A stretch of 64,000 nt of DNA from a virus, in IMG/VR virus record IMGVR_UViG_3300025543_005580, positions 47,990 to 111,989 of that record; one strand, given 5' to 3'. Below, piece by piece: positions 23,602 through 53,160 of this stretch. The stretch's first letter is position 1. The number at the start of each line of letters is the position of its first letter. Both the position numbers and the translations under genes were made by a program. The notes under the pieces were generated by a model. It did no database searches. It worked only from the letters and a program-made list of their open reading frames with translations, and was not told the DNA's origin.

Positions 23602-25260
23602 CTAGATAGTATCTAAACCAGCTACATAGATTTTACCATAGTACTCAGGACGTAACATCTTCTTAGCGTAACGAGTCATCAAACCTTTACGTGGAGTAAA
23701 CGTTTCTGGATCGTACACAAGAGGAGTCATGATTAATGGAATGTAAGGAGCAAATACAGCACCTGTTTCCAAGAATTGAGAACCTCTATATCCCATTAAC
23801 ATTAAGTTGTTAGTGAAATATGGATTTTTGTAAACTTTGTAACGGTTATTGATTGTACCAATTTTTTGTACACCAAATGCGTACTCACCTTGAGCAGCAT
23901 CACCGTTAGCGTTTGAAGCAAATCCTGGGATTGATTCCAAGATAGTAGCTACTGTTGGAGAAGTAACAATAAAGTTAGCACCACCTCTAAGAGTTAATTG
24001 GTGAATTTTATTGCTCAATTTCTGCATTTTAGTACCTAAAGTTTGGAACCACTCACCTTGAGAGTTGTAGAAACCAGTTTGTGCTACAGTTGTTGGGAAA
24101 TCGAAACTTGAACCATTCCAAACACCGTTGTTTTTAGCTGTCCAGTACTCAGTACCTGCAGCAGCATCAGCGATTAACATATCTAAGATTTCCAAATCAA
24201 TTTCCATTGAAATGTACTCACTCATGATATTTGTTAATTCAGCTTCAGCATCGATGTTTTGGTATGCAGCTAAATCTTGAGCGAACTCAGGAGTCCATAC
24301 TGCTTTCAATTTCTTGGTTTTAGCAGTAATAGCTTGTGATTGCATTTTAACGTTAATTTCTGGAATAACGATGTTAGTCGCAGATAAATCGTTAGGAGAT
24401 GCGTAACCTGGAAGTGCTTGGTCAGCTTCAAAATCACCACGGTTAATATCTGTAGTTAACTTGTTGAAGTATACAGAAGCGGGGTTAAACGTAGGCTGTA
24501 CAGATTGAGATACGAAGAACTCAAGATCAGTACCGTTAGTAGCAACTCTAGTTAAGTCTGAAAGGTTTTCAGCTAAAGTTACATCTGATGAAGAGATAAC
24601 AAATGCAGCAACACCATCTAAATCAGCATTAGCTGGGGCAGCAACAGTTACTTTCCAAATTTCACCTGCAACAAAAGAAGCAGAATATGCATCGTTTACA
24701 TCGATATCTTTGTAATCAGCAGAAACAGCAACAGTTACAGAACCTGTAAGGATAGAAGCTGTGAACTGGTTAGTTGAATAAGCAAAACGACCAGCACCGT
24801 ATAAACCACCTTCAGCTGCAGGAGTTGAGAATGGATAAGAACCAGCAGCGTTACGATCACCATAAAGTGACTCACCAACTGCGAAAGGAGTTTTAGCATT
24901 TCCGTATTGGAAATCTAAGAAGAACACTAGACCAGAAGGCATGTTCATAGGTTGAACAGAAACGAATTCTTTAGCTACGATAGTACCGAATACTTTTCTT
25001 ACTAAAGGTAAAGCAATACCAGCCCAGTTTTCACCTTCAGTACCTGAAGTGAAACCAGAGTTAGTAGAGATTACGTTAGTTTCTGTTACTAATTGTTTTG
25101 CTTGGTTTTCGAGCATCAAAGACATATTGTTCTTCTCAACTTCACCAAGACCTTCAAGTAGTCCTGTTTTAGACCACTTACCTGCTAATTTAGCAGCGTC
25201 AGACTGTAGGTTCTTCCATGAACCAGCAGCAGACTCGAGTAATGAATTTACTTGTGACAT
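23602..25260 (-). CDS. gp23: Major capsid protein, T4 gp23-like
   Basis: VSVQPMNMPSGLVF, AKTKKLKAVWTPEFAQDL, IDAEAELTNIMSEYISMEID, FAPYIPL, TPRKGLMTRY. Confidence 0.95.
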   Translation of the reverse strand: MSQVNSLLESAAGSWKNLQSDAAKLAGKWSKTGLLEGLGEVEKNNMSLMLENQAKQLVTETNVISTNSGFTSGTEGENWAGIALPLVRKVFGTIVAKEFVSVQPMNMPSGLVFFLDFQYGNAKTPFAVGESLYGDRNAAGSYPFSTPAAEGGLYGAGRFAYSTNQFTASILTGSVTVAVSADYKDIDVNDAYSASFVAGEIWKVTVAAPANADLDGVAAFVISSSDVTLAENLSDLTRVATNGTDLEFFVSQSVQPTFNPASVYFNKLTTDINRGDFEADQALPGYASPNDLSATNIVIPEINVKMQSQAITAKTKKLKAVWTPEFAQDLAAYQNIDAEAELTNIMSEYISMEIDLEILDMLIADAAAGTEYWTAKNNGVWNGSSFDFPTTVAQTGFYNSQGEWFQTLGTKMQKLSNKIHQLTLRGGANFIVTSPTVATILESIPGFASNANGDAAQGEYAFGVQKIGTINNRYKVYKNPYFTNNLMLMGYRGSQFLETGAVFAPYIPLIMTPLVYDPETFTPRKGLMTRYAKKMLRPEYYGKIYVAGLDTI

Positions 25261-25286: not shown

Positions 25287-26396
25287 TTACTTAATTCCGG
25301 CAAGTTTTTGCCATCTTGCAACTTGAGAATCAACCTCTACAATAAGTTTTTTAGTCGGGGCATTACCCATTGCTTTTGATGCTCTACCTAAATTTTCTTT
25401 AACAACAGACTTTGCTGGGGTTAAACCTTCGTTTAATGTTTCAAACACTAGTTTAACTTCTGTTACGGTAGTTGCTTTATCAAATGCAGCTAATACTTTT
25501 GCTTTTTGGCTTTCGCTCAAATTTTTACCTCTGAAGATTTTATTAACATAAAGGAGTTTAGCATTCAACATATTAACTTCCATTAATTCTGATTTTAGTG
25601 CTTCTACTTCTTCTTTAATTTTTTCAAGATCTTCTTTCTCGTCCTTCATACCGTCTTTGTAGCCTTCTTCTTCAGCATCTGTACGAGCATCTTCTTCAAG
25701 ATCTTCTTTCTCGTCCTTCATGCCGTCCTTGTAGCCTTCTTCCTCAGCGTCAGTACGAGCGTTTTCATCCACAGTTACTTCTTCTTCGTCTTCTACTTCA
25801 ATATCAACATCCATATCAGATTCTTCATCTTCTTCGTCTGCATCAATTTCACCTTCTAACTCACCAGCTTTAACCATGTCTGCGATTACGTCTTCAATGA
25901 ATGATTTAAGATCGTCTTCTGACATATCTTCAAGATCAATTTCTTCATCTTCGTCTTTGTCTTCTTCGTCCTCTTTCTCGTCTTCCATTCCGTCGAGGTA
26001 ACCCTCTTCTTCTGCGTCTGTACGAGCATCTTCATTTAATTCGTTGTCGAGTTCAGCTAATAATTCGTCTAAATCCATTTCGTCTACTTCTTCAGCTTCA
26101 TCTACTTCTTTAGTACCAAGTTTTTTCTTGCCCATTTGGCCTTCGTACCCTTCAGCATCATCTGCTTCATCCATTTTCTTAACTTCTTTAGCTTCTTCTT
26201 TAGCTTCATCAGTTTTCATTTTGGCTTCTTCTAAATCGTCCTCTTCATCCATTTCGGCTAACTTTGCAGATAGCTTTTCTTTTAGATAAGGTGAGAATGA
26301 TTCTTCAAGTGCCATTTTTGCATTTGCAATAGCTGTTTCTTTAACTGCTTTAGCATCTGCGATTGCTTCTTTTAACAAATTTCTATTTGTTGCCAT
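25287..26396 (-). CDS. Prohead scaffold/core protein, gp22-like (likely start MATNRN at 26396)
   Basis: Highly acidic coiled-coil protein between the protease and capsid genes; LNAKLLY motif and RWQKLAGI C-terminus. Confidence 0.75.
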   Translation of the reverse strand: MATNRNLLKEAIADAKAVKETAIANAKMALEESFSPYLKEKLSAKLAEMDEEDDLEEAKMKTDEAKEEAKEVKKMDEADDAEGYEGQMGKKKLGTKEVDEAEEVDEMDLDELLAELDNELNEDARTDAEEEGYLDGMEDEKEDEEDKDEDEEIDLEDMSEDDLKSFIEDVIADMVKAGELEGEIDADEEDEESDMDVDIEVEDEEEVTVDENARTDAEEEGYKDGMKDEKEDLEEDARTDAEEEGYKDGMKDEKEDLEKIKEEVEALKSELMEVNMLNAKLLYVNKIFRGKNLSESQKAKVLAAFDKATTVTEVKLVFETLNEGLTPAKSVVKENLGRASKAMGNAPTKKLIVEVDSQVARWQKLAGIK

Positions 26397-26532
26397 TTTT
26401 GTCCTCAATTTAATTGTTGGAAATACGTTTATTGTTGGCGAGTGCCGAAACGTAATAAATAATTTATTTACTGATGCCATATAGGAAATGGCATATTATA
26501 CTAATACATATATGGGTATATTTCGAAGTCGC

Positions 26533-26608: not shown

Positions 26609-27208
26609 TTAAATTACCGGACAAGTGCCATTAGCACACAGTATTTCCGATAATATTGTATTTACTTTTAAGTATTTATCTACTTGAACTTCTTGTCCTT
26701 CTTTAATCATATGCATGTATGATCCTGGGTTTGATGGGGTGGAAACAAAATCCCAACATAATAATTCGAAATCGTCTTGGACTTCTAATACACCATTTCT
26801 ATCCTCTAATGAACCCATACCTCGTGATGACACACCAACTTGTACGTTATTTTCAATTAATGCTTTAAGAATATTTCCTGATGTTGTAGGTAGTACTTCA
26901 ATTTTACCCATTACTTGATCTCCATCCCACCACATATCTCTAATAATATGGGATACATTTTTAAGATTGATGATAGAGGATTCTGGGTGGTCTAATTCAC
27001 CTGTTGCTCTATTTTCTTTTACAAGTACTCTGTATTTATCGATTTCACGTTCCCATAGATCTTTTGAATAATAACGACCATTGCCATTTTTTACTTCAGC
27101 AGTCGCTAAGATACCTTCAACTAATGGGTTACCTGATGGGGCTACCGATTCAGTTAAGCTAACTGGTTTAGCATTAAATGCTTGGGTTTCTATGAGGACC
27201 TGTTTCAT
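26609..27208 (-). CDS. gp21: Prohead protease, T4 gp21-like
   Basis: KNGNGRYY, GELDHP, VSHII, GVSSRGMGS, WDFVSTPS. Confidence 0.93.
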   Translation of the reverse strand: MKQVLIETQAFNAKPVSLTESVAPSGNPLVEGILATAEVKNGNGRYYSKDLWEREIDKYRVLVKENRATGELDHPESSIINLKNVSHIIRDMWWDGDQVMGKIEVLPTTSGNILKALIENNVQVGVSSRGMGSLEDRNGVLEVQDDFELLCWDFVSTPSNPGSYMHMIKEGQEVQVDKYLKVNTILSEILCANGTCPVI

Positions 27209-35321: not shown

Positions 35322-36704
35322 TTAAAATGTAATATTATCTCCTTGATGATTATCCCATTCGCAAATATACGAACCATTTTCTACTTTACAAAATCGCTCT
35401 AAAATATCTTCAGCAACATATGTTCCTTGTGCTCCTGAAACTGTAATACCACGAGCTGAGAGTGCATCACCTACAAAGTGAACATTATCAAAATCAGCCA
35501 ATGCCAGATTTTTATAATCTACAAGTGGCTCAGGTGATAGATATTTTACTTCAGGAATATAAACACCCCAATCATCTCCAAGTGTTGGAAATACTTTTTT
35601 CATATCATCAATAAAGTCATCAATGTATTTATAGTAACCTTGAAATGCTTCTCTTACTGCATCCATTTTATCAATTGAAATAGCACTTACTATATCACCT
35701 TCTGATGTTGTAGATGGTGTACGAGTTGGACTATAATATAAACCAGTACCTTCTTTATTTACTTTAGATACTAATTCTCTAGACCAAGCAAATGGTTCTT
35801 CAATTCCTGGTATTTCCATTAGGATACCAAAATTGGTCATATTATTTCTAAACGCTTCATCTTTTTTAGCGTGTCCGTTGTAGCTGTGATCTCCATACGT
35901 TTCTTCAACGGCAACATATGCTGCATTGTTGTTTGTACAGAAAGAACGTAGTGATACTCCTTCATCAAATTTTCTATATAATTTAAAATCATAACTAATA
36001 TCAATTAGTTTCTGGAAGTGTTTTTGTGGTGCCTCAAATCGCACCCCAATTTGTACTGGTTTTGGTTCAGTAGGTAGTTCATAATCGTCTGCTAATTGTT
36101 TACCAAAATCAATACCTGATTTGCCAACAGCAAACATTAGGCGATCATAGCTAATAGGCCAATTTTTAGGATTAATAAATGTTTCTTCTTCTCCTATAAA
36201 TAATTCTTGAGAATTAAAATCAATTGAAGTTACTTTAGTCTCCCAAATAAATTTAACACCTTTAGACACTAGATAATCATACCAATTTTTACCAATCTCG
36301 TGTAGATAATCTGTACCAACGTGCCATACAGGAAATAATCTTAAACCGAAATATGGTTTAATAAAATCTGGTTCCGCTACTGGGTTTGAACATTGTACTT
36401 CTTCTGGTTTAGGATGGAAACGTTTGAAATTGGTAATTACCTGATCAAACAATTCCATTGCTTTATCTTCCCCACAATACTTAGACATATGACCTCCAAT
36501 TGCTGTGTGATAAGTTAATTTACCATCACTCCAACCACCAGCACCTAAAAATCCTTCCATCACTTCAGAATATTTTCGGTTATATGGATCTTTACCCATA
36601 TCGATGATAGTAATATTATCACCAGGATAACCATTATCTACCAATTTTGTAGCAGCATTAACACCTGCTACACCTGCTCCTACGATTACTAATTTTTCTA
36701 CCAT
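35322..36704 (-). CDS. FAD-dependent oxidoreductase (COG2509-like)
   Basis: IVGAGVAG Rossmann motif, GFLGAGGWSDGKL, IGVRFE, RSFC, YNGH, PEVKY, VGD...RGI. Confidence 0.85.
   Translation of the reverse strand: MVEKLVIVGAGVAGVNAATKLVDNGYPGDNITIIDMGKDPYNRKYSEVMEGFLGAGGWSDGKLTYHTAIGGHMSKYCGEDKAMELFDQVITNFKRFHPKPEEVQCSNPVAEPDFIKPYFGLRLFPVWHVGTDYLHEIGKNWYDYLVSKGVKFIWETKVTSIDFNSQELFIGEEETFINPKNWPISYDRLMFAVGKSGIDFGKQLADDYELPTEPKPVQIGVRFEAPQKHFQKLIDISYDFKLYRKFDEGVSLRSFCTNNNAAYVAVEETYGDHSYNGHAKKDEAFRNNMTNFGILMEIPGIEEPFAWSRELVSKVNKEGTGLYYSPTRTPSTTSEGDIVSAISIDKMDAVREAFQGYYKYIDDFIDDMKKVFPTLGDDWGVYIPEVKYLSPEPLVDYKNLALADFDNVHFVGDALSARGITVSGAQGTYVAEDILERFCKVENGSYICEWDNHQGDNITF
35362..35392 (-). promoter_or_regulatory. 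Bacteroidota-type sigma70 promoter
   Basis: TTTG-N19-TATATTTG matches the -33/-7 consensus; about 50 nt upstream of ORF 35044..35310. Confidence 0.65.
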
Positions 36705-37535: not shown

Positions 37536-37838
37536 TTACTCTTTCCAAATTTTTATTATTAATTTTCCTTCTCCTTTTATAACACGATGCCATTCGTGTT
37601 TTGGAATAAATATAGGCACATTCATTGAAGTTGGTAATTGGTCTTCTAACTGTATTTGCCAATCTGTTTTACCTATAATCTCAATTGTTCTATCTTCATC
37701 ATCACGATGCCACATAAGTTCAATTGGGTCTATATTTTCACTAAATTCCCTAATTGTATATTTGTTGTTGATTTCTATATCAACATAAGGTCTACCAGAA
37801 ACCTCCGAAATTTGATTTGAGTCCGAGTAATTTTGCAT
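37536..37838 (-). CDS. Small cupin-fold protein (start uncertain; ATG at 37838 overlaps the upstream gene)
   Basis: ELMWHRDDEDR...WQIQL...IFIPKHEWHRVIKG. Confidence 0.7.
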   Translation of the reverse strand: MQNYSDSNQISEVSGRPYVDIEINNKYTIREFSENIDPIELMWHRDDEDRTIEIIGKTDWQIQLEDQLPTSMNVPIFIPKHEWHRVIKGEGKLIIKIWKE

Positions 37839-38619
37839 AACGTGGTAAGCGACAAGACCAATATCCTGCCTTTGTTTTATCCTTTTTAGTTGAACATTTA
37901 TGACGTGCCGCAAATGCATTACGTGCTTTTTTATCGTTGATTTTAGCTCTTAAACCACCTGAACCGAAACGTACTGTTTTAATTTTCTTGGTTTTAGGAT
38001 CTTTAACATAAACCTTATATGCTTTACCTCCTGAAGAGTCACGCATTGGTTTATTTAATTTTTTATTGTCGTTTTTGGCTTCTTTAAGTACAAACTTATC
38101 CACCCAAACATCGTGGGTTAATCTATATAATACTTTGTCTGGTATTCTATCTGTGTATATTTTTATTACACCTTCAGTACCACTATGTCTAGTATGATTG
38201 ATATTCATATCTTGCAATTTATCAATCATAAGGTCATAATTTTCAGGTCTAACTTTTAATAGAGCATATTTTCTATCATCTTCTCCACCTTCTTCATATG
38301 TTCCTTCGTCTAACATAGGAAAATCTAATGGTACTTTTTTACCTTCAAACATGCCATAATGACCTAAATCTGTTTCTGTTAGAACAGCTAAATCATCTTC
38401 ATGAGTAATCTCTAAAATATTACGAGAATATAAAGAACGAGCTTCAGCCCATAAGTTAAAGTAACTATCCGAACCAGCACGATATAAGTGTTCTGTTAGC
38501 GGTTTATTAGCGTCCATATGGTATTTTAAACCTTCAGACAATATAGCACGTGGAGCTAAACTTTCGTTGAGCATTAACGTTGATTTTGTATCGCAAGTAT
38601 TACATCCGCAGTCGCACAT
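37792..38619 (-). CDS. Putative internal head protein with basic Cys-containing C-terminal domain
   Basis: LNE/LSE/LDE/LKE-delimited modules; KVYVKDPKT...VRFG...ARHKC...YWSC domain. Confidence 0.65.
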   Translation of the reverse strand: MCDCGCNTCDTKSTLMLNESLAPRAILSEGLKYHMDANKPLTEHLYRAGSDSYFNLWAEARSLYSRNILEITHEDDLAVLTETDLGHYGMFEGKKVPLDFPMLDEGTYEEGGEDDRKYALLKVRPENYDLMIDKLQDMNINHTRHSGTEGVIKIYTDRIPDKVLYRLTHDVWVDKFVLKEAKNDNKKLNKPMRDSSGGKAYKVYVKDPKTKKIKTVRFGSGGLRAKINDKKARNAFAARHKCSTKKDKTKAGYWSCRLPRYAKLLGLKSNFGGFW

Positions 38620-38635
38620 ATTATTTTGTTTTATT

Positions 38636-39823
38636 TTATTTTATACCAGAATATTGGAATTTTAACATCCCCATTTGACCTAACCTACCCACATTACTAG
38701 GTGGTCTGTCAGGTTTAATACTTTTATCACTTCTGATAGTCATTTTTAATTTTAATTCTTCACCAGTAGCACCTTCAATTATTATATAAAATCCTTGAAC
38801 TGAAGAATCATCCATAACAGCTTTAAAGGATTTAATTGATCCTAAGGTAGAGGCTAGTATGTCTGATTTTTGAGATGCACTATTTCCTACTGCTTTTACA
38901 AGTATTAAAGGTATTTCTTGTTCTTTTTGAAGGTTAAAACTATTAAACACCCACCCTTTAAATTCTTCTAAACTTAATGAATTAATAGCATCAATGACTA
39001 CTTCTCTATTTACATTAAGCATCTCTCTATAAAGATCATTTGCTTCAATTTCATCTTCTAAATAAAATTGAACATATAAATCTACTACAGCTCTTTTATA
39101 TGTTTTTGTAAAATAGTTTGAGGCGTTAACACCTTCTATATTTTTTATTCCTGGTATTTTGCTATAAACTCTATCCCACATTTCTTGGTATAGGGCAGGT
39201 AAAAAATCCTCTTTACCCATAGCATTTAATTGAGTAGTAACAAAGGAATTAAGTAAAGGTTCTGATGATTTTTCAGTTCCCGCTTTTAATGACACCCCTA
39301 CAATTGATCCATCTTTAAAAAAGATAAATATGTCTCCAGCATGTCCGCTAGGTACTCCTTCTGGTTTTGCTCTATAACCCCAAACAACATAATCTATGGG
39401 ATTTTTACTATTTAAATCATAAAGCCAATTAGTTATCCCTATAGCATTTTGAAATTTTTCATCTAACATTTTGGGAGATAATACCTCTTCCATTGTATCA
39501 AAAATATTCTTTGCGGATTGTCTATCACCTGAATTAACAAAAGCTTTACTATTAAGGGAATGGTTTTTTACAAAGTCTTTAAAATCTTCTACTGAGGATG
39601 GTTTGTACCCGTCATTAAAGGCTAATGCTGGGGGTAGTTCTGTTATAGCTGCTGATAAAGTAGTATCAACTCTACCCTCATTTTCTTCTAAGCTAAATTT
39701 TTCACCTAAAAATTCACTTAATAATGTCTCCAATAACAAAACATCCTGATCATTATTCATGTCAGGATATCCTTTAGGAAATTTATATGCAATCCTATTT
39801 AAATATTTTGTAATATTATCCAA
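38636..39823 (-). CDS. Putative PD-(D/E)XK restriction-endonuclease-like protein with N-terminal leader
   Basis: HAGDIFIFF...GVSLK motif; N-terminal YKFPKGYPD...LLSE...SLEE segment. Confidence 0.5.
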   Translation of the reverse strand: MDNITKYLNRIAYKFPKGYPDMNNDQDVLLLETLLSEFLGEKFSLEENEGRVDTTLSAAITELPPALAFNDGYKPSSVEDFKDFVKNHSLNSKAFVNSGDRQSAKNIFDTMEEVLSPKMLDEKFQNAIGITNWLYDLNSKNPIDYVVWGYRAKPEGVPSGHAGDIFIFFKDGSIVGVSLKAGTEKSSEPLLNSFVTTQLNAMGKEDFLPALYQEMWDRVYSKIPGIKNIEGVNASNYFTKTYKRAVVDLYVQFYLEDEIEANDLYREMLNVNREVVIDAINSLSLEEFKGWVFNSFNLQKEQEIPLILVKAVGNSASQKSDILASTLGSIKSFKAVMDDSSVQGFYIIIEGATGEELKLKMTIRSDKSIKPDRPPSNVGRLGQMGMLKFQYSGIK

Positions 39824-39830
39824 TTTTATT

Positions 39831-40124
39831 TTATTTTACTATTACTTTAAATAAACCTGGGTGTTCTTTTTCGAAATATTTAGCTTGATTATAGCTACGA
39901 CCAAAAACAAATTCATCTAATTCATCTGCATCAGTATATGTCGTAACATCTACTTCACCATCTTCTATTTCATCTTCAGTACCAAATTCATATGGAGAAT
40001 CTGCTAATTCACCTGACTCAACGTCAAAAGCTATTTCTGGGGTTAGAAGTTCAATGTGGTAATCCACTTCTTCTTCAAATAAGCGGCCTTCAGCTAAATA
40101 TTTTTTTAAATTGAAATTGTTCAT
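39831..40124 (-). CDS. Leader-bearing putative head cargo protein (97 aa, acidic)
   Basis: N-terminus MNNFNLKKYLAEGRLFEE. Confidence 0.7.
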   Translation of the reverse strand: MNNFNLKKYLAEGRLFEEEVDYHIELLTPEIAFDVESGELADSPYEFGTEDEIEDGEVDVTTYTDADELDEFVFGRSYNQAKYFEKEHPGLFKVIVK

Positions 40125-40152
40125 TGTTTTATTTTTTTATTTTAATTTTATT

Positions 40153-40683
40153 TTAGATGATATAATACAAATCGTCTTTTAACATTTTCCTCATTTCATC
40201 TTTACTGAATTGAGGGATTGGTTTTCCATTAGCATCCATTTTAAATGCAGGAAGGAATTCTCTTCCATCTTCATCAGATAATTGTGGTATAGCATAAATT
40301 TCAATATCACCATTACTATGGATTTCTACATACCCCTCATCTCCAACAGCATACATACCAGGTTTAACCATTTGAGCTACCATATCAAAATCGTAGGGAT
40401 AATCATTTTCTTCAGCAAATTCTTTTTCGTATACATTAGAATTAAAGCTAAAATTATTATAAAATTTATTAAATTCTTCTTCGTTCCAAGGGCCTGATTG
40501 GTTATAGCCATATATATCATCATTTACTCCATCATAATATCCTGCACCACCTGAACCTACTCCCCCTAAAAGACCATCATCAAATCTAAATCCTGCTTTT
40601 ACGAGTACATCTTCAATGTCTCTTAGTTCTTCTTTTAATAAGCGACCTTCGGCTAAATATTTTTTTAAATCAAAGTTATCCAT
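40153..40683 (-). CDS. Leader-bearing putative head cargo protein (176 aa)
   Basis: N-terminus MDNFDLKKYLAEGRLLKE. Confidence 0.7.
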   Translation of the reverse strand: MDNFDLKKYLAEGRLLKEELRDIEDVLVKAGFRFDDGLLGGVGSGGAGYYDGVNDDIYGYNQSGPWNEEEFNKFYNNFSFNSNVYEKEFAEENDYPYDFDMVAQMVKPGMYAVGDEGYVEIHSNGDIEIYAIPQLSDEDGREFLPAFKMDANGKPIPQFSKDEMRKMLKDDLYYII

Positions 40684-40715
40684 TTTATTTTTATTTTATT
40701 TCCTTTTATTTTATT

Positions 40716-41273
40716 TTATTCGCTTGCTAAATCCATAGCATATTGTTCAACTTCATCGGCATCATACCCAAAATCTTCAACATCTTCTATAAATTCTGCT
40801 TTACCATTAGTAAGTATATTAGCTAATACAGTACCTGCTTCTCCTAAAGCATACTCAAAATCTTCCATTTTACTAAGATCCATTATAGCAGATTTAAAAC
40901 TTTTTTTCTGTATGGGGGTAAGAAAAATTGGTTTTGATTCTTCTTTTTGTTTTTGAATTGGTTGAGATGGTTGAGATGGTGGAGTAAGTTTTTGTAAATT
41001 TAAATCGTTATCCCAAGTTAATTCATAATCCATTAATTTTCCTGTATTAGTTTCCGCTGTAACATTAGCCTGAATTGCTTTATGCTGTATCTTGTTGTTT
41101 TTGGAAGATGTAACCCTAATAGATTGTATAGGATCTAATCCGTTTTGTTCATTATATGTTGATATTATTGGGAATGCCATTTTTTCAATTTCCTCCATAC
41201 CAACATTCACAAAGTTTTCTTCTTCAAATAAGCGACCTTCAGCTAAATATTTTTTTAAATCAAAGTTGTTCAT
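40716..41273 (-). CDS. Leader-bearing putative head cargo protein (185 aa)
   Basis: N-terminus MNNFDLKKYLAEGRLFEE. Confidence 0.7.
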   Translation of the reverse strand: MNNFDLKKYLAEGRLFEEENFVNVGMEEIEKMAFPIISTYNEQNGLDPIQSIRVTSSKNNKIQHKAIQANVTAETNTGKLMDYELTWDNDLNLQKLTPPSQPSQPIQKQKEESKPIFLTPIQKKSFKSAIMDLSKMEDFEYALGEAGTVLANILTNGKAEFIEDVEDFGYDADEVEQYAMDLASE

Positions 41274-41292
41274 TTTATTTTATTATTTTATT

Positions 41293-41814
41293 TTATACTT
41301 CTATATCTGTTGTATCGTCAACTTCTACATCTATTTCTTCAGTATCACTACCTTCTCCTGGTGATGAGGTTGTTGATGCGGTATCTGATGCTTCTAAAGC
41401 TGCTTCATCTCCCATTTCAGCATCGCTGTTACCATAAGATAACATACGAGCTATAGCTTCAATAGCTCTTTCTTCCTCATTTAAATTAAGTAAATAATAT
41501 TTTTTACCTTCAATTTTAGCAATCCAACTACGAACTGCCCAAATTAAATAAAATACTTCATCATTTGCTAGTACAATTCTAAATGTAGTAGGTTTTGGAG
41601 CTACCCATTGGATATCTTTAACGAATGTTTCAAATTGATCCGTTAGCATATCAACTAATATTCTCTTTAGTTCTGGGAATTTTAAGAGCATTGGAAATTT
41701 TTCAATTTCTAAATCTATAGTGGAATTACCCCCATCCAAATCAACGAATGATCCTGGTTTGTATACTTGGCTTACAAGTCCTTTGATTTTATCTCTTAAT
41801 TCTGATTTAGTCAT
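41293..41814 (-). CDS. Hypothetical protein (MTKSELRDKIK leader, acidic tail)
   Basis: Clean ORF in the head-cargo block. Confidence 0.65.
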   Translation of the reverse strand: MTKSELRDKIKGLVSQVYKPGSFVDLDGGNSTIDLEIEKFPMLLKFPELKRILVDMLTDQFETFVKDIQWVAPKPTTFRIVLANDEVFYLIWAVRSWIAKIEGKKYYLLNLNEEERAIEAIARMLSYGNSDAEMGDEAALEASDTASTTSSPGEGSDTEEIDVEVDDTTDIEV

Positions 41815-43157
41815 TATTTAGACTTTAATTTTTCTGCTAATCTTTTAGCAATTTTTTCGGCTTTACTTAAATCGCCTTTATTCATTGCTTTTCTAGCTTG
41901 TTGGAGTTGATAAGTTTTAGATATATCTCCTTTATGTTTATTCAATGCCTTTTGAATAGCAGAAGCTAACATATCAGCTTTACCTGGGGTTTCTTCGTTT
42001 ATTTCAATATCATCAACAACATCAACTTCCATTTCAGGGGTGATATCATCCATTCTATCTACTACAGCATCAATTGCTGGTTCTTTTAGTTCAAAATCTA
42101 AGTAATGCTTAGCACCTACAATAGCTGATTTAGCATTTGAGATTTTTGATTGCCACCAATGTGGTAAATCAACTTCTCCTTTACCTTCAAAATCATCCAT
42201 CATTTGGTATAATTCCATAGCATATTTTCCAATACGATATAGATCACCTTTTAACATATGAGGTTCGTTATCTTGATGACCAAGATCCATATCTTCTTGC
42301 ATCATGTCCTCATCTTCATCTTCTTCCTCACCGTATTCTTCAATTTCGTCTACGATTGAAGCAATTGTAGTATCGTATCTGTTTGAGCTAGAACCTAAAT
42401 CGAAAGCACCATATGCGTCTCCTTTACTAAGGTAAGATGGGAAGTTTTGTGCGATAATATCTCTGGCTTGATCTCCTAATACTTGGAGTTCATCTAAGAT
42501 ATTTCTTAGCTCCATAAGAGCTTCTACTTTATCTTCATTTAATGCATTTTCACTTAAAAATTTAGCTTTTGCTGCTTTAAAATCACCTTTGTATAGTTGT
42601 TTAACTATTTTACGTCCTAAAGTTTCTAATTGATCTAAATCTAAAGAATGAGGTTTACCAAATCCTTTTAAATATGCCGCTCCAATGTCTCCATACTCTG
42701 CAGGATCAATTACATCTTCAACACCTTCTTTTAGATCACCTAATTCCTTAGCTGCTCTAACAAGATCATTTCTTGCTTCATCTTCACCAACACCTCTGTA
42801 TTTGGCTATCTTTTTAATAGCCATTTTAGCAATGCGTTTTTCTTCAGATGAAGAACTTTCATCTAGGTTTTTTTCAATTGCCGCGCCACGTTTTTCTTCG
42901 TAATCTGAAAGTTTACCATCTTTATTTAGATCGGCTGCTTTAGGATTTTTAAGAGAATCTTTAATCATCTCTCTAACTTTATCTTGATTCATATTTTCAG
43001 TTTTTTTCTTAGCCATATTAGTTGCGCGACCATACATTACTGCTTCCGCGTCCTTACCATAACGTTTAACGAAGGACCTCTTATTTGTTTTGAGGTCCAT
43101 TATCGCATCTTCTCGATTTTCGAGTTCTTGTTTAGTAAGTTCGCGTTCGTTAAGCAT
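41814..43157 (-). CDS. Modular putative internal head protein (likely start MLNERE at 43157)
   Basis: Modules bounded by LDE/LKE/LSE/LNE/INE. The ORF-track 5' extension overlaps the Hc1-like gene. Confidence 0.65.
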   Translation of the reverse strand: MLNERELTKQELENREDAIMDLKTNKRSFVKRYGKDAEAVMYGRATNMAKKKTENMNQDKVREMIKDSLKNPKAADLNKDGKLSDYEEKRGAAIEKNLDESSSSEEKRIAKMAIKKIAKYRGVGEDEARNDLVRAAKELGDLKEGVEDVIDPAEYGDIGAAYLKGFGKPHSLDLDQLETLGRKIVKQLYKGDFKAAKAKFLSENALNEDKVEALMELRNILDELQVLGDQARDIIAQNFPSYLSKGDAYGAFDLGSSSNRYDTTIASIVDEIEEYGEEEDEDEDMMQEDMDLGHQDNEPHMLKGDLYRIGKYAMELYQMMDDFEGKGEVDLPHWWQSKISNAKSAIVGAKHYLDFELKEPAIDAVVDRMDDITPEMEVDVVDDIEINEETPGKADMLASAIQKALNKHKGDISKTYQLQQARKAMNKGDLSKAEKIAKRLAEKLKSK

Positions 43158-43167
43158 GTGTTTTTTT

Positions 43168-43323
43168 TTACTTGTGTCCTCTTTTGAAGTCAGCGGATAA
43201 GTTTTTGATTTTGTTAGCGGCAGATCTACATCTTCCTTTAGCTGCAGCTGATGTTTTGTCAATTTCTGCTTCAATCAATAATACTTGTTCTTTGATTCCT
43301 TCTAATAATTCTTTAGTTTCCAT
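43168..43323 (-). CDS. Histone H1-like (Hc1-type) small basic protein, 51 aa; not in the ORF track
   Basis: METKELLEGIKEQVLLIEAEIDKTSAAAKGRCRSAANKIKNLSADFKRGHK with an A-rich start; resembles the KAAGTRARKAS pattern of Bacteroidota Hc1-like proteins. Confidence 0.6.
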   Translation of the reverse strand: METKELLEGIKEQVLLIEAEIDKTSAAAKGRCRSAANKIKNLSADFKRGHK

Positions 43324-43370
43324 AATTTTTATTGTTTTATAAATTTAATTGTTTGTTTATTTTTATTTTA

Positions 43371-44687
43371 TTATAATAATTTGTTTATCAAGCCATCGTT
43401 ACCTCTACGAACTGTAGATTCGTTAATTGACTCATTATTATCTACTTTAGAAACGTGTGCTCTAGTAAAGTAAGTAATTGTATTACCAATTTGATCAGTT
43501 AGTTTTTCATCTCCTAATTTTTCAGCTTCTTCTTGAGCTTTCATTAGTAAACTTTGAACTGCGATTTCATCTTCACCTTCACCTGGCATACTACCTTTTA
43601 CGTCAATATCGGTTTCAACTGATTCATCATCAACTTCAACATCTTTTTCAATGTCAACATCAACTTTTTCGTTGTCTTCAACATCTACTTCTTCTGCTTC
43701 ATACATATCATCTCCTTCATCCATATCTTCTATTTCGGCTACTGGGTCATATGCATCTGTAGTATCATTGATTGTGATTTCAGCTTCAGCCATCATAGCT
43801 GCTTTAATCATTTCTTTTAACTCTGATTTTTTCATTTTAGTTTTATTTTCGTTTAATTCAGTAGGCATTTCTTCATCTACTATTTCTTCTTTGGTATATG
43901 ATTTTCCACACATTTTTTCGTATAGTTTTTCCATCTTGGCTTTTCGTCTTTCAAGATCTTTAACTTCACGCTGCATTTCTTTCATTTTTTTCTTATCAAC
44001 TAATTGCGATAAGTTATCATCCTCAGTAACCATTGAAATTCTTTGGTTTTTAGATTCGATCATTTCATCAATAGCTGCAATTTTAGCTTCTAAAGCAACA
44101 ACTTGTGATTGTTTTTCGATTTCAGCTAATTTGCTGTCTACTGTTTCTTTTTTCATTTTATTTGATTTTGTTTTTTTAATTTCTTCTTCTTTAATTTCTT
44201 CCATGTAGTCGCTCATTTCTTTTCTGCGCTCCATATAATCGGTTTCTACATCATCAGTCATACCAAGATCCGCTTTGGAATCTTCGGCTGAAATGATTTC
44301 AATTTCGCCTTCAGGGGTAATATAAGCTACTTTAGCATTTCTTGAAGCAGCATTAGTAACTAAATAACCATCACCTTCAGGACGGATTACAAATGAACCA
44401 CCAGCATAATCACCTAAATAATTAGCAATACCGAATCCTCTACTGTCTTCCCAATCATCACCTGGTGTGTTAGGTCCTGCTTCTACATCTAAATCAAAAC
44501 CACCACCACGAGGATCAGCTTCAATTGAGTTAGGTGTAATTATATATTTAAGATCTAATTCATTATCTTCAGCTGTAAATTCATCAGCAACTGCTTGAGC
44601 TACTTTTTGAACTAAATCATCAGTAAGTTCTACTTCGTTTAGTAGCTTACCTTCAGCTAAATATTTTTTATAATTAAAATTATCCAT
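43371..44687 (-). CDS. Leader-bearing modular putative head protein (438 aa)
   Basis: MDNFNYKKYLAEGKLLNE leader and internal MKKSELKEMIK; late motif at 44704-44711. Confidence 0.7.
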   Translation of the reverse strand: MDNFNYKKYLAEGKLLNEVELTDDLVQKVAQAVADEFTAEDNELDLKYIITPNSIEADPRGGGFDLDVEAGPNTPGDDWEDSRGFGIANYLGDYAGGSFVIRPEGDGYLVTNAASRNAKVAYITPEGEIEIISAEDSKADLGMTDDVETDYMERRKEMSDYMEEIKEEEIKKTKSNKMKKETVDSKLAEIEKQSQVVALEAKIAAIDEMIESKNQRISMVTEDDNLSQLVDKKKMKEMQREVKDLERRKAKMEKLYEKMCGKSYTKEEIVDEEMPTELNENKTKMKKSELKEMIKAAMMAEAEITINDTTDAYDPVAEIEDMDEGDDMYEAEEVDVEDNEKVDVDIEKDVEVDDESVETDIDVKGSMPGEGEDEIAVQSLLMKAQEEAEKLGDEKLTDQIGNTITYFTRAHVSKVDNNESINESTVRRGNDGLINKLL

Positions 44688-44714
44688 TCCTAATATATTT
44701 ATGTATAAATATGG

Positions 44715-45008
44715 TTATTTTTTAGACTGATACGTCCCTTTCTTGTATTTTGCAGATTTTGTGTTTTTAACAAATTGTTTACCTTTTTTATCACCACGGA
44801 CTTTTTTAGCTACTGTAGCTTTTCTTTCTGCCTTTGTTAAGGATTGAGCTTTTTTTCTAGGCAAACATCTAGTAGTTGCTTTACCTTTTTTCATAGTACC
44901 ACAAGGGCCAGTAATGTTACCAGCCGTATCAATTCGAACCCAATCCTCTTTTTTAAACCAATCGCGAAGGGATTCTGAAATTATTTCTTGTAGTCTTTCG
45001 TTTGTCAT
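44715..45008 (-). CDS. Small basic putative head protein (97 aa)
   Basis: IISE followed by SLRDWFKKEDWV...PCG...CLP...ERK basic domain. Confidence 0.65.
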   Translation of the reverse strand: MTNERLQEIISESLRDWFKKEDWVRIDTAGNITGPCGTMKKGKATTRCLPRKKAQSLTKAERKATVAKKVRGDKKGKQFVKNTKSAKYKKGTYQSKK

Positions 45009-45589
45009 TATGAAACTGCGTCTTCAACAGCACCTTTTAAAATAGTATTTACTTCAATACCTTTAATTGCTGCTTTTAAACTATATATTCCACCTTTAAG
45101 ATAACTTGCTTTTTTAAGATAAGCAACAGCTTCACCTCCTGCTTGACCTGCCATTAAGAAGATTATAACAGCATATAATACATCGGATATCCATTTTTGT
45201 TTTTTGGTGTCTTTAGTAAAGATACTTACTATTCGTTTAATTGGAGCTTTAAATGCTTCTTCATTTTTATGAGTAAAATCATAAATTTTCTTGGCGGCCT
45301 CTTCACCTTTACCAAAATTATGTTTAGCAAATTGTTTTTTAGCAAATTTAGAAAGCATATTAGCTATTGTATTAGATAATAAAATATATCCTATAATACT
45401 AACAGTAATTGCTACCTCATTGATTTCTTTATCGGACTTTTGAATTTCTTCTTTATGGTCTTCTAATTCATCTTTAATTTCATCTGCTAGATCATCTGCA
45501 AATGCATCTAATTCAGCACCAAATTGATCTTCTTCACTTTCAAATAGCTTGCCTTCAGCTAAATATTTTCTTAAATCGAAATTATCCAT
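45008..45589 (-). CDS. Leader-bearing putative head cargo protein with hydrophobic helices (193 aa)
   Basis: MDNFDLRKYLAEGKLFE leader; INE followed by VAITVSIIGYILLS; VLYAVIIFLMAG. Confidence 0.7.
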   Translation of the reverse strand: MDNFDLRKYLAEGKLFESEEDQFGAELDAFADDLADEIKDELEDHKEEIQKSDKEINEVAITVSIIGYILLSNTIANMLSKFAKKQFAKHNFGKGEEAAKKIYDFTHKNEEAFKAPIKRIVSIFTKDTKKQKWISDVLYAVIIFLMAGQAGGEAVAYLKKASYLKGGIYSLKAAIKGIEVNTILKGAVEDAVS

Positions 45590-45619
45590 TTTATTTTTTC
45601 TTTAAGGGGTTTAGTTGAA

Positions 45620-46015
45620 TTAACTATTTTCCCAGTCTTTTTTTCTTCTATCTACTTCTTGGTAAAAAGCTTCTTCTCCTTTTTCTTTCCAACTTAAATA
45701 ATCAGCATATTTTTCAGGAAAACTAACTATCCATTTATTAATAGCATCATAAGCCTTTTTAACAGATTCAGGTGAAGGATTTATTCTAGGAACAGAGACA
45801 TCAAATTGGCCATCCCACCATCCTGTCATATCATCATTCCAATCGATTCTGAATACATCTGGAAATCGCATAGTTCTAAGTTTTGCTCCTGTTTTGATTT
45901 CTAAATCTTTAGCCATTTGTTCAAAGTCATTAAACATTTCTTTTCTTGAAGGAGTAGTTTCTTGTTCAAATAATCTACCTTCAGCTATATATTTTTTTAA
46001 ATCGAATGTATCCAT
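45620..46015 (-). CDS. Leader-bearing putative head cargo protein (131 aa; likely start 46015)
   Basis: MDTFDLKKYIAEGRLFE begins right after the upstream stop codon. Confidence 0.7.
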   Translation of the reverse strand: MDTFDLKKYIAEGRLFEQETTPSRKEMFNDFEQMAKDLEIKTGAKLRTMRFPDVFRIDWNDDMTGWWDGQFDVSVPRINPSPESVKKAYDAINKWIVSFPEKYADYLSWKEKGEEAFYQEVDRRKKDWENS

Positions 46016-48238: not shown

Positions 48239-48449
48239 TGTTATTTTTTTTAGTTCTTCTACGTTTTTTTGGTTTAGGTATTTCTTTTACTACCTTTTCT
48301 AATGATGATTCACCACTCATTTTAATTTCTACTTGTGGTTCTTCTGTGGTTACTCTAGTAACTTGTACTGGGTTAGTATCTCGGATTACTTTTTGGTTGC
48401 CTTTAGGGGCATGAAAAGTTCTACTATTTTCAAATTTACCTAATTCCAT
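48225..48449 (-). CDS. Hypothetical protein with basic tail (74 aa)
   Basis: Tightly packed ORF. Confidence 0.5.
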   Translation of the reverse strand: MELGKFENSRTFHAPKGNQKVIRDTNPVQVTRVTTEEPQVEIKMSGESSLEKVVKEIPKPKKRRRTKKNNNEKP

Positions 48450-49066
48450 TATTTTTTAGTATTTAGGTATTCGTCAAGTAATGTACCGATAACACCTGCT
48501 TTCTGTCGTATAAATATCCACTCTTCCTTAGATAATTTATGTTGTTGTTGAAAATCTACACAAAGAACGCCAATAAAACGATCTTTTAAATCGTCTAAAG
48601 CAAGTAAATAATAAGATTGGGCACCATAAGGTTCAGCAACGGCTCCTAACCCATAAGTTTCACCATTAGCATCCGATACGGCTATTTCACCATTTTTATA
48701 AAGTTCAGACATTGCTTTTGGAAATAATGATACTGGGATGTTTTGGAAGTTATGTTGTGCTGCTAGAATATTTGGTCCTACTTTTTCATAGAACATAGAA
48801 AATTTCTGGATTGATTTACCTGTTGGATAAAAATGTCCACCATTATGAAATTGGGTAACCCATACTCGGTCGCAATTTAATTCATCCATAATAACATCAA
48901 GTTGTTCATCAACTAAGTTATTTAGTTCTATTGCTTCATGTACAGGATTTTTTTCCTCTTTTTTCTTTCCAAAATGATTTTTTGCCCATTCAACAGCAAT
49001 TGGCCCAAATACAGCTGTTATTAAAGCAACGATTATTGTCGAAAGCATCATTATTGTAGTTTCCAT
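48449..49066 (-). CDS. Single-TM protein with GAF-like domain (holin T-like candidate)
   Basis: N-terminal hydrophobic helix; CDRVWVTQFHNGG...FIGVLCVDF pattern. Confidence 0.55.
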   Translation of the reverse strand: METTIMMLSTIIVALITAVFGPIAVEWAKNHFGKKKEEKNPVHEAIELNNLVDEQLDVIMDELNCDRVWVTQFHNGGHFYPTGKSIQKFSMFYEKVGPNILAAQHNFQNIPVSLFPKAMSELYKNGEIAVSDANGETYGLGAVAEPYGAQSYYLLALDDLKDRFIGVLCVDFQQQHKLSKEEWIFIRQKAGVIGTLLDEYLNTKK

Positions 49067-51988: not shown

Positions 51989-52366
51989 TTATTGTTTTAG
52001 TTTTTGGATTTTTTCCTTAGCTATACGTTTCTTTTCTTCGATGTCCTTTTTAGCACCTCGAAAAGACTCCATAGCATCTTCCATTTCTTTGAGACTATCT
52101 TGATATGCATTTAGTGCTTCTGATCCTGCTCTCTTTGCATCTAATTTTTGTTTATAGATACCTAAAATATTTTTAACATCTAATCCACCTTTGATTTGAA
52201 GAGCGAATGAAGGAAGGTCTAATTCGTAAACCACATCTTCCATTTCGGAATCTTTGGTTGGTTTTTCTACGATAAAAAATTTGCCGATCTCATCTACCAT
52301 TGAAGTCGCTACTTCAGTAACTACTTCATTTGTTTCTATTTCGTTTAATATATCTACTAATTTCAT
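51989..52366 (-). CDS. Putative internal head protein (MKLVDILNE leader)
   Basis: N-terminus resembles a capsid-targeting sequence; coiled-coil tail. Confidence 0.6.
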   Translation of the reverse strand: MKLVDILNEIETNEVVTEVATSMVDEIGKFFIVEKPTKDSEMEDVVYELDLPSFALQIKGGLDVKNILGIYKQKLDAKRAGSEALNAYQDSLKEMEDAMESFRGAKKDIEEKKRIAKEKIQKLKQ

Positions 52367-53160
52367 TTTTTAAGGAATTGGTTTAATCTCATTTGTGCCT
52401 CTTCTTTAGACATAGTATATTCAATTACATCATATACAAAGTCATCACTTAACATAGATTGAATTTCTTCTTTATCTTGAGCATTTCGCTCATCTGATTT
52501 TTTCTGTTGAGCTGGAGTTTTTGGTTTAGTATCTGTAGGTGCGAATGGTTTAAGATATTTATCTATAATCTTATCTATATCTTGCATTCTATCATCTAAT
52601 GTATTAGCTACAGCAACAAAATTATTACCAAATAAATCAGCATATTTAGGTAGGTTTTCTGTTACACCTTTCCAAGTACGCATTACAATAGCAGGTGCTA
52701 AGCTTCTATCTTCACCACCTGATTTTTGGTATCTATCTTGATTTTGTCTTAACGAACGTTCTAGATCAGTATAAACGTAAAGCATAAATACATCGTATCC
52801 TGCTTCCTCCAATTGTTGTTTTAATTCAGCTGTTTTTTTAAATGAAGCGGCTGTACCATCTAAAACAAAGGATTGTTTACCATCTATTACACCTTGTAGC
52901 TCACCCTTAAATTCTTTGTTAGCTGCAGCCATTGCTTTAGCTTGCTCACTTCTTTCCTCAGGAGTAGCATTTTTTAAATCTAAAGATACATTGGCTTGTT
53001 TAAGTTTACTAATAAAGGTATTGTCTATATTAAGGATTTTTAAATCACCTATATCTAATTTTGATAAAATAGACCCTTTACCAGCACCCGGGGCACCAGC
53101 AAGAATTACTGCTTTAGGTTTAGATATAGCCTCCTTTAAAAGTTCTGTCAACAAAATCAT
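52363..53160 (-). CDS. P-loop kinase, zeta-toxin/AAA_33-like, with LLKE leader
   Basis: AVILAGAPGAGKG, LNIDN, FVLDGT, GYDVFMLYV..DLERSL..N..R. Confidence 0.75.
   Translation of the reverse strand: MILLTELLKEAISKPKAVILAGAPGAGKGSILSKLDIGDLKILNIDNTFISKLKQANVSLDLKNATPEERSEQAKAMAAANKEFKGELQGVIDGKQSFVLDGTAASFKKTAELKQQLEEAGYDVFMLYVYTDLERSLRQNQDRYQKSGGEDRSLAPAIVMRTWKGVTENLPKYADLFGNNFVAVANTLDDRMQDIDKIIDKYLKPFAPTDTKPKTPAQQKKSDERNAQDKEEIQSMLSDDFVYDVIEYTMSKEEAQMRLNQFLKK

What the first reader, a model, noticed from the sequence alone, without database searches (positions are those of the whole stretch)
39831..46015. Cassette array: a conserved MDNFDLKKYLAEG(R/K)L leader on six unrelated cargos
Seen: genes starting at 40124, 40683, 41273, 44687, 45589 and 46015 share an ~18-aa leader M(D/N)(N/T)F(D/N)(L/Y)(K/R)KY(L/I)AEG(R/K)L(F/L)xE and then diverge completely. 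The leader is also conserved as ~50 bp of DNA and is usually preceded by (TAAAA)n spacers. It contains a gp21-like LAE-G site, in some copies followed by a second (LKE, LNE). Inference: a plug-in system in which one element supplies translation start, capsid targeting, protease removal and recombination homology, so new effectors can be captured, shuffled and injected. This would be an integron-like array without an integrase, probably enriched in anti-defence proteins.
Basis: partly seen in the sequence, partly recalled or inferred. Interest (0 to 1): 0.88.

Follow-up and report, generated by a model that had tools for sequence, protein, structure and literature searches.

The report
Capsid-loading-type leader on swappable phage cargo
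An uncultured T4-like phage, probably of flavobacteria, starts seven unrelated small genes with one 18-residue tag that looks like a "load into the head, then cut off" label of the phage T4 kind; it is new in sequence and scale but not in principle, and neither loading nor cutting has been measured.

Summary
Observation confirmed. Six minus-strand genes (starts 40124, 40683, 41273, 44687, 45589, 46015) and a seventh outside the window begin M-(D/N)-N-F-(D/N)-L-K-K-Y-L-A-E-G-(K/R)-L-x-x-E and are otherwise unrelated.

The phage has T4-type head genes: Peptidase_S77 protease, Gp23 capsid and T4 portal, in T4's gene order.

The tag heads 227 genes in 118 related viral contigs and at least 1,799 protein clusters in metagenomes. 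Conservation stops at residue 18. Codon usage shows selection on the peptide, not the DNA.

The same cargo family occurs behind other leaders, all ending (L/I/V)-x-E just before the conserved body. The tag's second half, LAEG(K/R)LLKE, recurs as the joint between modules of polyproteins.

Related phages carry different cargos in at least five slots, one between the protease and scaffold genes.

Best reading (0.7): a bipartite capsid-targeting and cleavage propeptide, a variant of T4's CTS/internal-protein system. Here most cargos are acidic and of unknown function.

Not supported:
- the "integron-like" part: no integrase, no attC, no homogenisation of leader copies
- the "anti-defence" part: no evidence either way

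This scan has already reported the same leader in other genomes, with the same reading.

The parts
39831..40124 (-). Leader gene 1, 97 aa; leader codons 40071-40124; acidic cargo (pI 4.05)
40153..40683 (-). Leader gene 2, 176 aa; leader codons 40630-40683. The cargo is a confident globular alpha/beta fold with no PDB match; the leader is modelled as a flexible extension.
40716..41273 (-). Leader gene 3, 185 aa; leader codons 41220-41273; acidic cargo (pI 4.44)
39837..41243 (-). Block of three leader cassettes that is absent from the closest relative found (L012). There the gene equivalent to 41293-41814 is followed directly by the gene equivalent to 38636-39823.
40127..40155 (-). (AAAAT)n A-rich spacer before the start codon. 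Similar spacers lie at 40684-40720 and 41274-41296.
43371..44687 (-). Leader gene 4, 438 aa; leader codons 44634-44687. It contains an in-frame fossil gene start at 43835: the spacer is read as ENKTK, followed by a second leader type, MKKSELKE. This looks like two cassettes fused.
45008..45589 (-). Leader gene 5, 193 aa; leader codons 45536-45589. The cargo has two hydrophobic 19-residue segments. The same cargo family sits in a different slot in L004, L010, L091 and L107.
45620..46015 (-). Leader gene 6, 131 aa; leader codons 45962-46015. The same cargo occurs elsewhere behind MKKSELRQ..VLKE, behind an immuto-type leader, and as the second module of a two-module protein joined by SLNE.
26609..27208 (-). 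Prohead protease of the T4 gp21 family (Peptidase_S77, 104 bits), the presumed cutter. Its own N-terminus reads KQVLIE-T, like T4 gp21 QLLIE-T.
25287..26480 (-). Scaffold protein, probable true start at 26396. Its N-terminus MATNRNLLKE-AIADAK carries the same LLKE as the commonest leader end.
23602..25260 (-). Gp23-type major capsid protein. Its N-terminal ~76 residues lie outside the Pfam match and hold conserved SLLE, GLLE-G, ILE-N and QLV(V/T)E motifs.
52363..53160 (-). Zeta-toxin-like P-loop kinase with a 10-residue alternative leader, MILLTELLKE. Its counterparts in L041 and L045 carry the 18-residue leader instead, joined at the same LLKE.

Best explanation
The 18-residue leader is a two-part head-loading propeptide of the phage T4 'capsid targeting sequence' kind.

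Residues 1-9 (MDNFDLKKY) are the start and probable address. Residues 10-18 (LAE-G-(K/R)-L-x-x-E) hold two cutting sites of the phage's own Peptidase_S77 prohead protease.

Inferred mechanism: tagged proteins are built into the scaffold core of the prohead. The protease then clips the tag at or near residue 18. The mature cargos, mostly small and acidic, stay in the head and enter the next host with the DNA.

Because the tag is self-contained, any open reading frame that acquires it becomes cargo. Cargos then exist interchangeably as separate genes, as in-frame fusions, or as beads of a polyprotein joined by the cut-site half of the tag.

Shown here: the anatomy, the selection on the peptide, the exchangeability of leaders, the joints, the variable arrays and the T4-type head genes. 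Inferred: binding to the core, cutting, packaging and injection.
For: 1. T4-type head module. Peptidase_S77, Gp23 and Portal_T4 are present in T4's order portal-x-x-protease-scaffold-capsid.

2. Sharp module boundary. Over 189 distinct copies, residues 1-18 are conserved and entropy jumps to background at residue 19.

3. Selection on the peptide. Positions 14-18 were not in the search pattern, yet are conserved across synonymous and non-synonymous codon families. Leu15 is coded TTA 79, CTA 69, CTT 12, TTG 9.

4. A second cut-site motif. 92% of leaders have [LIVMFY]-x-E with the Glu at residues 17-20, against 10.7% for equal windows inside cargos.

5. Exchangeable leaders. The same cargo family is found behind at least six other leaders, each ending (L/I/V)-x-E right before the conserved body. 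Examples: MKELYRFRQFLTEG..KE; the 10-residue MI.L..LLKE; MKKSELKE...L.E; MKKLLTERFQELAGL..LQE.

6. Polyprotein joints. The leader profile finds 1,799 representative proteins. In 87 of the best 150, LAEG(K/R)LLKE recurs inside the chain without the MDNFDLKKY part, between bodies that are separate cargos elsewhere.

7. Position in the head operon. In 10 related loci, leader genes sit directly between the protease gene and the scaffold or capsid genes.

8. Matching motifs in head proteins. The scaffold starts ..R(D/E/N)(F/L/I)LKE-A, the capsid propeptide has GLLE-G, and the protease starts ..VLIE-T as T4 gp21 does.

9. Resemblance to T4. T4 IPII and IPIII start MKTYQEFIAE, that is aromatic-(I/L)-A-E, like KYLAE here. 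T4 CTS biology is taken from PMC9026906, PMC3012670 and PMC5694885.

10. Structure. AlphaFold gives a confident cargo fold (pLDDT about 90) and a low-confidence detached leader (about 55).
Against: - No virion proteomics, N-terminal mapping or packaging test exists for any phage with this leader.
- (L/I)-x-E is a short motif, and the protease's specificity is carried over from T4 by homology only.
- 77% of cargos have pI below 5 (25% for other genes of the same loci). T4 IPII and IPIII are basic, pI 9.6-9.7.
- The seventh copy, and immuto gp003, lie among nucleotide-metabolism or replication genes, not head genes.
- The count of internal joints comes from the top-scoring hits, which favours proteins with several copies.
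Confidence: 0.7

Rival explanations
1. The tag is a docking and processing label for a destination other than the capsid. Examples: cytoplasmic polyprotein processing, timed degradation, or binding to a hub protein of phage or host. On this reading the cargos act inside the producing cell and are not injected.
For: Cargos are acidic, unlike the T4 internal proteins. One copy here and one in immuto lie outside the structural region. No packaging data exist.
Against: The only protease seen in the contig is the prohead protease, and its family motif fits the sites. Leader genes are embedded in the head operon in 10 relatives. Scaffold, capsid and protease N-termini carry the same motif type.
Confidence: 0.15
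2. The conserved ~54-nt leader with its A-rich spacer is above all a recombination site that moves cassettes, an integron-like system without an integrase. The peptide is secondary.
For: DNA similarity between homologous cassettes ends within 30 nt upstream of the ATG in 85 of 190 pairs, and within 30 nt after the stop in 67 of 190. The same cargo family occupies different slots. The closest relative lacks exactly three cassettes.
Against: Leader copies within a genome are not homogenised at synonymous sites. Selection acts on the peptide. The cut-site half persists at internal joints, where no gene boundary exists. There is no integrase and no attC-like repeat. Cassettes have no conserved 3' element.
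Confidence: 0.07
3. The genes are diverged paralogues of one family, and the leader is just their best-kept part.
For: They are tandem genes of similar size with a shared start.
Against: Profile-profile comparison of the 14 largest cargo families gives at most 5% probability. Cargo lengths run from 55 to 491 aa. The same cargo carries unrelated leaders.
Confidence: 0.03
4. The conserved stretch is an mRNA-level translation-start or regulatory element.
For: An A-rich stretch at -14 to -1 precedes most copies, typical of Bacteroidota-type initiation (my own knowledge).
Against: Codons vary synonymously while residues are kept. The second half recurs in-frame deep inside polyproteins.
Confidence: 0.03

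Closest known systems
Phage T4 capsid targeting sequence (CTS) on internal proteins IPI, IPII, IPIII and Alt, removed by prohead protease gp21 (PMC9026906, PMC3012670, PMC5694885)
   Same: A short N-terminal propeptide is shared by otherwise unrelated proteins. It ends in (L/I)-x-E. A homologous S77 protease, gp23-type capsid and the same head gene order are present. The cargo set varies between related phages. The end of the first half, KYLAE, resembles T4's EFIAE.
   Different: The leader is 18 residues with two sites, not 10 with one, and shows no demonstrable sequence homology to T4's. Its second half doubles as a polyprotein joint. Cargos are mostly acidic, not basic. There are at least 120 cargo clusters in 118 loci and at least 1,799 in metagenomes, spread over at least five genomic slots. 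Nothing has been tested at the bench.
Propeptides of ejection and inner-body proteins of giant phages phiKZ, 201phi2-1 and SPN3US, cut by their gp21-like protease (PMC5694885, PMC10052503)
   Same: A head protease related to gp21 removes N-terminal propeptides from many head-internal proteins. Some paralogues share identical N-termini. There are multiple cut sites per propeptide.
   Different: Those propeptides are mostly over 100 residues, the motif is (S/A/G)-x-E, and many of the clients are paralogues. Here the tag is short and the clients are unrelated.
Integron gene cassettes (IntI integrase, attI and attC sites)
   Same: Arrays of small, unrelated, exchangeable genes whose content differs between close relatives.
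   Different: There is no integrase in the contig, no attC-like inverted repeats, and no single insertion point: at least five slots are used. The shared element is translated and selected as a peptide.
Hyperplastic regions and mobile promoter-stem-loop cassettes of T4-type genomes (Krisch laboratory work, recalled from memory, not read here)
   Same: Blocks of small accessory genes are swapped between related T4-type phages at short conserved sequences at gene starts.
   Different: Those conserved elements are untranslated promoter and stem-loop units. Here the conserved element is coding, and no conserved promoter was found upstream.

Membership tests
T4-type CTS / internal-protein system | Short N-terminal peptide shared by otherwise unrelated proteins | tested here: met
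   There are 7 copies in the contig and 227 in related loci. Cargos fall into 120 clusters, and hhalign gives at most 5% probability between families.
T4-type CTS / internal-protein system | Peptide ends in the prohead-protease motif (L/I)-x-E | tested here: met
   L10-A-E12 is present in 96-97% of copies. [LIVMFY]-x-E ends at residues 17-20 in 92%, against a 10.7% background.
T4-type CTS / internal-protein system | Genome encodes a gp21-family protease with a gp22-like scaffold and gp23-like capsid | tested here: met
   Peptidase_S77 scores 104 bits, Gp23 258 bits and Portal_T4 222 bits. Gene order is as in T4.
T4-type CTS / internal-protein system | Peptide is cleaved off during head maturation | not testable with these tools
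   There is only indirect support: alternative leaders and polyprotein joints all end at the same motif.
T4-type CTS / internal-protein system | Tagged proteins are present in mature heads and enter the host | not testable with these tools
   No proteome of a leader-bearing phage was found. The motif string KYLAEG occurs in 0 papers of the library.
T4-type CTS / internal-protein system | Sequence homology of the tag to the T4 CTS (MKTYQEFIAE) | tested here: inconclusive
   Only the pattern aromatic-(I/L)-A-E is shared. The peptides are too short for a statistical test.
Integron | Tyrosine-recombinase integrase next to the array | tested here: not met
   PF00589 has no match in the 112-kb contig, which is estimated 69% complete, so absence from the whole genome is not proven.
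Integron | attC imperfect inverted repeat at the 3' end of each cassette | tested here: not met
   Only weak, long-range inverted repeats were found, none flanking the cassettes.
Integron | Cassette content varies between close relatives | tested here: met
   This is seen in the gene-order comparison of 118 loci and in the L012 comparison.

The most novel reading that the evidence does not exclude
A whole lineage of abundant aquatic T4-like phages of Bacteroidota uses a two-part peptide grammar: an address (MDNFDLKKY) plus a cut-site joint (LAEG(K/R)LLKE). This turns any open reading frame into injected cargo, written as a separate gene, a fused gene or a bead of a polyprotein. It would create an open pan-genome of well over a thousand mostly acidic, fold-novel effector proteins delivered with the DNA, many of them counter-defence or host-takeover factors. 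The tag would then be a sequence-only way to list the injected proteins of uncultured phages.
Probability: 0.35. Interest if true: 0.75.

Novelty: new variant of a known kind. Interest (0 to 1): 0.55.

Why it matters
If the tag is a head-loading label, it gives a purely sequence-based handle on what an abundant group of uncultured marine and freshwater phages injects along with its DNA. That amounts to hundreds to thousands of small proteins with no known family, which are natural candidates for host takeover and counter-defence.

The tag and its cut-site joint would also be a ready tool for packaging foreign proteins into flavobacterial phages, as the T4 CTS is for E. coli.

The principle is known from T4, so the value lies in the scale, the bipartite design and the polyprotein joints, not in a new mechanism.

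Tried and rejected
- Megablast of the region against cultured phages gave no match.
- Pfam and PHROGs on the six cargos gave nothing meaningful. For 114 cargo representatives, only 4 had Pfam hits and 14 had PHROG hits, mostly of unknown function.
- Fold search of the well-modelled cargo 40153-40683 gave Foldseek best E 0.056 and VIA-align best Z 3.9, so no usable match.
- The test for gene conversion between leaders within a genome was negative at synonymous sites.
- The sigma-70-type promoter scan found fewer sites than in shuffles. The T4 late-promoter word TATAAATA is not enriched overall, and only one leader gene (44687) has it nearby, in the opposite orientation.
- A blastn hit in the Flavobacterium psychrophilum FpV9-type phages is a coincidence. 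The protein reads MDNFDILKQNLD and shares only five residues.
- My first, loose cargo clustering chained everything through low-complexity acidic stretches and was replaced by a stricter one.
- 'Singleton' status within the IMG/VR loci is a sampling effect. The cargo of 40153-40683 has more than 170 homologue clusters in metagenomes.
Full report
**What is there**

The window is the right-hand 64 kb of a 112-kb viral contig. Almost all genes lie on the minus strand.

Six genes start at 40124, 40683, 41273, 44687, 45589 and 46015. Each begins with M-(D/N)-(N/T)-F-(D/N)-(L/Y)-(K/R)-K-Y-(L/I)-A-E-G-(K/R)-L-(L/F)-x-E, and they then diverge completely.

- The repeat finder returns one six-copy direct-repeat family of 88 nt at exactly these starts.
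- A seventh copy lies about 38 kb upstream of the window.
- The extended motif occurs 7 times in the contig and never in 200 shuffles.
- (AAAAT)n spacers precede three of the six genes.

The spacer claim holds for only half of the genes.

**What kind of phage**

The head module is of the T4 type. It has a large terminase, a Portal_T4 portal, a Peptidase_S77 prohead protease (104 bits), a scaffold and a Gp23 capsid protein (258 bits). The order is portal, three small genes, protease, scaffold, capsid, which is T4's 20-67-68-21-22-23 order.

The nearest cultured relative is Flavobacterium phage vB_FspM_immuto, with 55% capsid identity. No cultured phage matches at the DNA level.

**How widespread the leader is**

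These stretches and the contig hold 227 leader genes, and in about 95% of them the leader starts at residue 1.

A profile of the first 38 residues finds 1,799 representative proteins (clusters at 50% identity) at E up to 0.001 among 1.84 billion.

The string KYLAEG occurs in no paper of the library. No Pfam family covers the leader.

**A peptide, not a DNA element**

Over 189 distinct copies, residues 1-18 are conserved and entropy rises to background at residue 19.

Positions 14-18 were not part of the search pattern, so their conservation is unbiased:
- K/R14 is spread over several codon families.
- Leu15 is coded TTA 79, CTA 69, CTT 12 and TTG 9.
- Glu18 is present in 123 of 189 copies.

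Upstream, only an A-rich stretch from -14 to -1 is kept.

Copies within one genome are no more alike at synonymous sites than copies from different genomes (0.733 against 0.724; 122 of 500 permutations reach this). There is no sign of gene conversion between copies.

**The cargos are unrelated**

- With the leader masked, 227 genes fall into 120 clusters.
- Profile-profile comparison of the 14 largest families gives at most 5% probability over 91 pairs.
- Lengths run from 55 to 491 aa, with a median of 138.
- 77% of cargos have pI below 5, against 25% for other genes of the same loci.
- Only 4 of 114 representatives match Pfam. One of these is a Zeta-toxin-like kinase.

The cargo of 40153-40683 has more than 170 homologue clusters in metagenomes. 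It folds with mean pLDDT 86. The leader is modelled at pLDDT about 55, as a detached extension. The fold has no convincing PDB match.

**Evidence that the end of the leader is a processing site**

Four points bear on this. I regard the second and third as the strongest results.

1. 92% of leaders have [LIVMFY]-x-E ending at residues 17-20, against 10.7% in equal windows inside cargos.

2. Orthologous cargos carry quite different leaders, and every one ends (L/I/V)-x-E immediately before the conserved body.
   - For the 40153-40683 family: MDNFDLKKYLAEGRLLKE, MKELYRFRQFLTEG.IKE, MKKLLTERFQELAGLKPLYTLQE and MNKELLRMQKLAGLITESELKEKLSLNE.
   - For the 45620-46015 family: the canonical leader, MKKSELRQLIREEISKVLKE, an immuto-type leader ending RLNE, and a two-module protein joined by SLNE.
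   - The window's own kinase (52363-53160) starts with the 10-residue MILLTELLKE. Its counterparts in L041 and L045 carry the 18-residue leader, joined at the same LLKE.

3. In 87 of the 150 best profile hits, the second half LAEG(K/R)LLKE recurs inside the chain without the MDNFDLKKY part. It lies between bodies that are separate cargos elsewhere. Twelve further proteins are in-frame fusions that keep the whole leader and translate the A-rich spacer. These top hits are biased towards proteins with several copies, so the proportion is not representative. Gene 43371-44687 of the window is itself such a fusion, with a fossil start at 43835.

4. Proteins known to be processed in T4 show the same motif here.
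   - The scaffold starts ..RNLLKE-A, and seven homologues agree.
   - The capsid propeptide has SLLE, GLLE-G, ILE-N and QLV(V/T)E.
   - The protease starts KQVLIE-T, like T4 gp21 QLLIE-T.

T4 IPII and IPIII start MKTYQEFIAE, so KYLAE resembles the end of the T4 CTS.

**Genomic behaviour**

Gene-order strings for all loci show a conserved backbone with leader genes in at least five slots:
- Slot A, between the counterparts of 48449-49066 and 43168-43323. In this window it holds 46015, 45589 and 44687.
- Slot B, between the counterparts of 41293-41814 and 37792-38619. In this window it holds 41273, 40683 and 40124.
- Slot C, between the counterparts of 37536-37919 and 35322-36704. This is the commonest slot elsewhere and is empty of leader genes here.
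- Slot D, directly between the protease and the scaffold or capsid genes, used in 10 loci.
- A slot among nucleotide-metabolism genes, which holds the seventh copy.

The same cargo family turns up in different slots. The 45589 family is in slot A here and slot C in L004, L010, L091 and L107.

The closest relative found is L012, about 90% identical over 2.3 kb. It lacks exactly the three cassettes of slot B. Where the window has 46015 and 45589, it has one unrelated 302-aa protein, with the breaks at gene boundaries.

Among homologous cassettes, DNA similarity ends within 30 nt upstream of the ATG in 85 of 190 pairs, and within 30 nt after the stop in 67 of 190.

The arrays are therefore highly plastic. 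The mechanism of exchange is unknown. There is no integrase, no attC-like repeat and no conserved 3' element.

**Interpretation**

The best reading is a bipartite T4-type capsid-targeting and cleavage propeptide (confidence 0.7). T4 biology supplies the model:
- Propeptides of 10-19 residues target internal proteins to the scaffold core.
- gp21 removes them at (L/I)-x-E.
- Foreign proteins fused to the tag are packaged and injected.
- T-even phages carry diverse internal proteins with a conserved CTS (PMC9026906, PMC3012670, PMC5694885).

What differs here: the length and two-site design of the tag, the use of its second half as a polyprotein joint, the acidity of the cargos, the number of slots and the sheer number of cargos.

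Cutting, packaging and injection are all inferred. The main rival is that the tag serves a non-capsid destination (0.15).

**Status within this scan**

Earlier follow-ups in this scan reported the same leader in other genomes (e1-5669873, e1-5928626, e1-5928642) and reached the same reading. Notes on this genome describe neighbouring polyproteins with protease motifs at their joints (e1-5982963, e1-5982964). I used these as leads only. The results above were computed here.

Noticed in passing
window 1042, 16659, 18767, 19112, 22701, 27825, 29667, 31585, 34110, 44704, 58773 and others: The word TATAAATA is not enriched overall (17 found, 12 expected). However, 15 of the 17 hits are on the plus strand, and most sit in short gaps between minus-strand genes. 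In gene orientation the recurring word just upstream of many starts is therefore TATTTATA. It may be a promoter or start-region element of this phage group.
   Followed up: no
window 43371-44687, internal start at 43835: Two cassettes appear fused in frame. An A-rich spacer is translated as ENKTK and is followed by a second leader type (MKKSELKEMIK..MAE) in the middle of the 438-aa protein.
   Followed up: partly
window 25287-26480: The scaffold ORF probably starts at 26396 (MATNRNLLKE), as in seven homologues. The 28 residues upstream look like an over-extended ORF.
   Followed up: partly
window 52363-53160: A Zeta-toxin-like P-loop kinase (Pfam 64 bits) carries a 10-residue T4-CTS-like leader, MILLTELLKE. 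It would be a candidate packaged enzyme.
   Followed up: partly
window 45008-45589: The cargo has two hydrophobic 19-residue segments (residues 58-79 and 133-158). The unrelated protein that replaces it in L012 also has a hydrophobic stretch. This is a possible membrane-inserting ejection protein.
   Followed up: no
L124 (Flavobacterium phage immuto_13-6C) 5001-6301: The protein annotated as cob(I)alamin adenosyltransferase and its 99-aa neighbour, both just upstream of the terminase, start with a 25-residue variant of the leader (M(A)(D/E)NF.L..FL.EN.LT.N...L.E).
   Followed up: partly
L121 (CBFHZN010000003.1, 'Microbacteriaceae' MAG) and L122: Contigs filed under bacterial metagenome-assembled genomes carry canonical leader genes. 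They are most likely phage contigs binned into the MAGs.
   Followed up: no
window 37536-37919 and 37792-38619: These two conserved backbone ORFs overlap by 128 nt, so one start is probably mis-set. The second begins with a Cys-rich MCDCGCNTCD motif followed by MLNE and ILSE sites. In L020 and L067 its basic C-terminal domain occurs behind the canonical leader.
   Followed up: no
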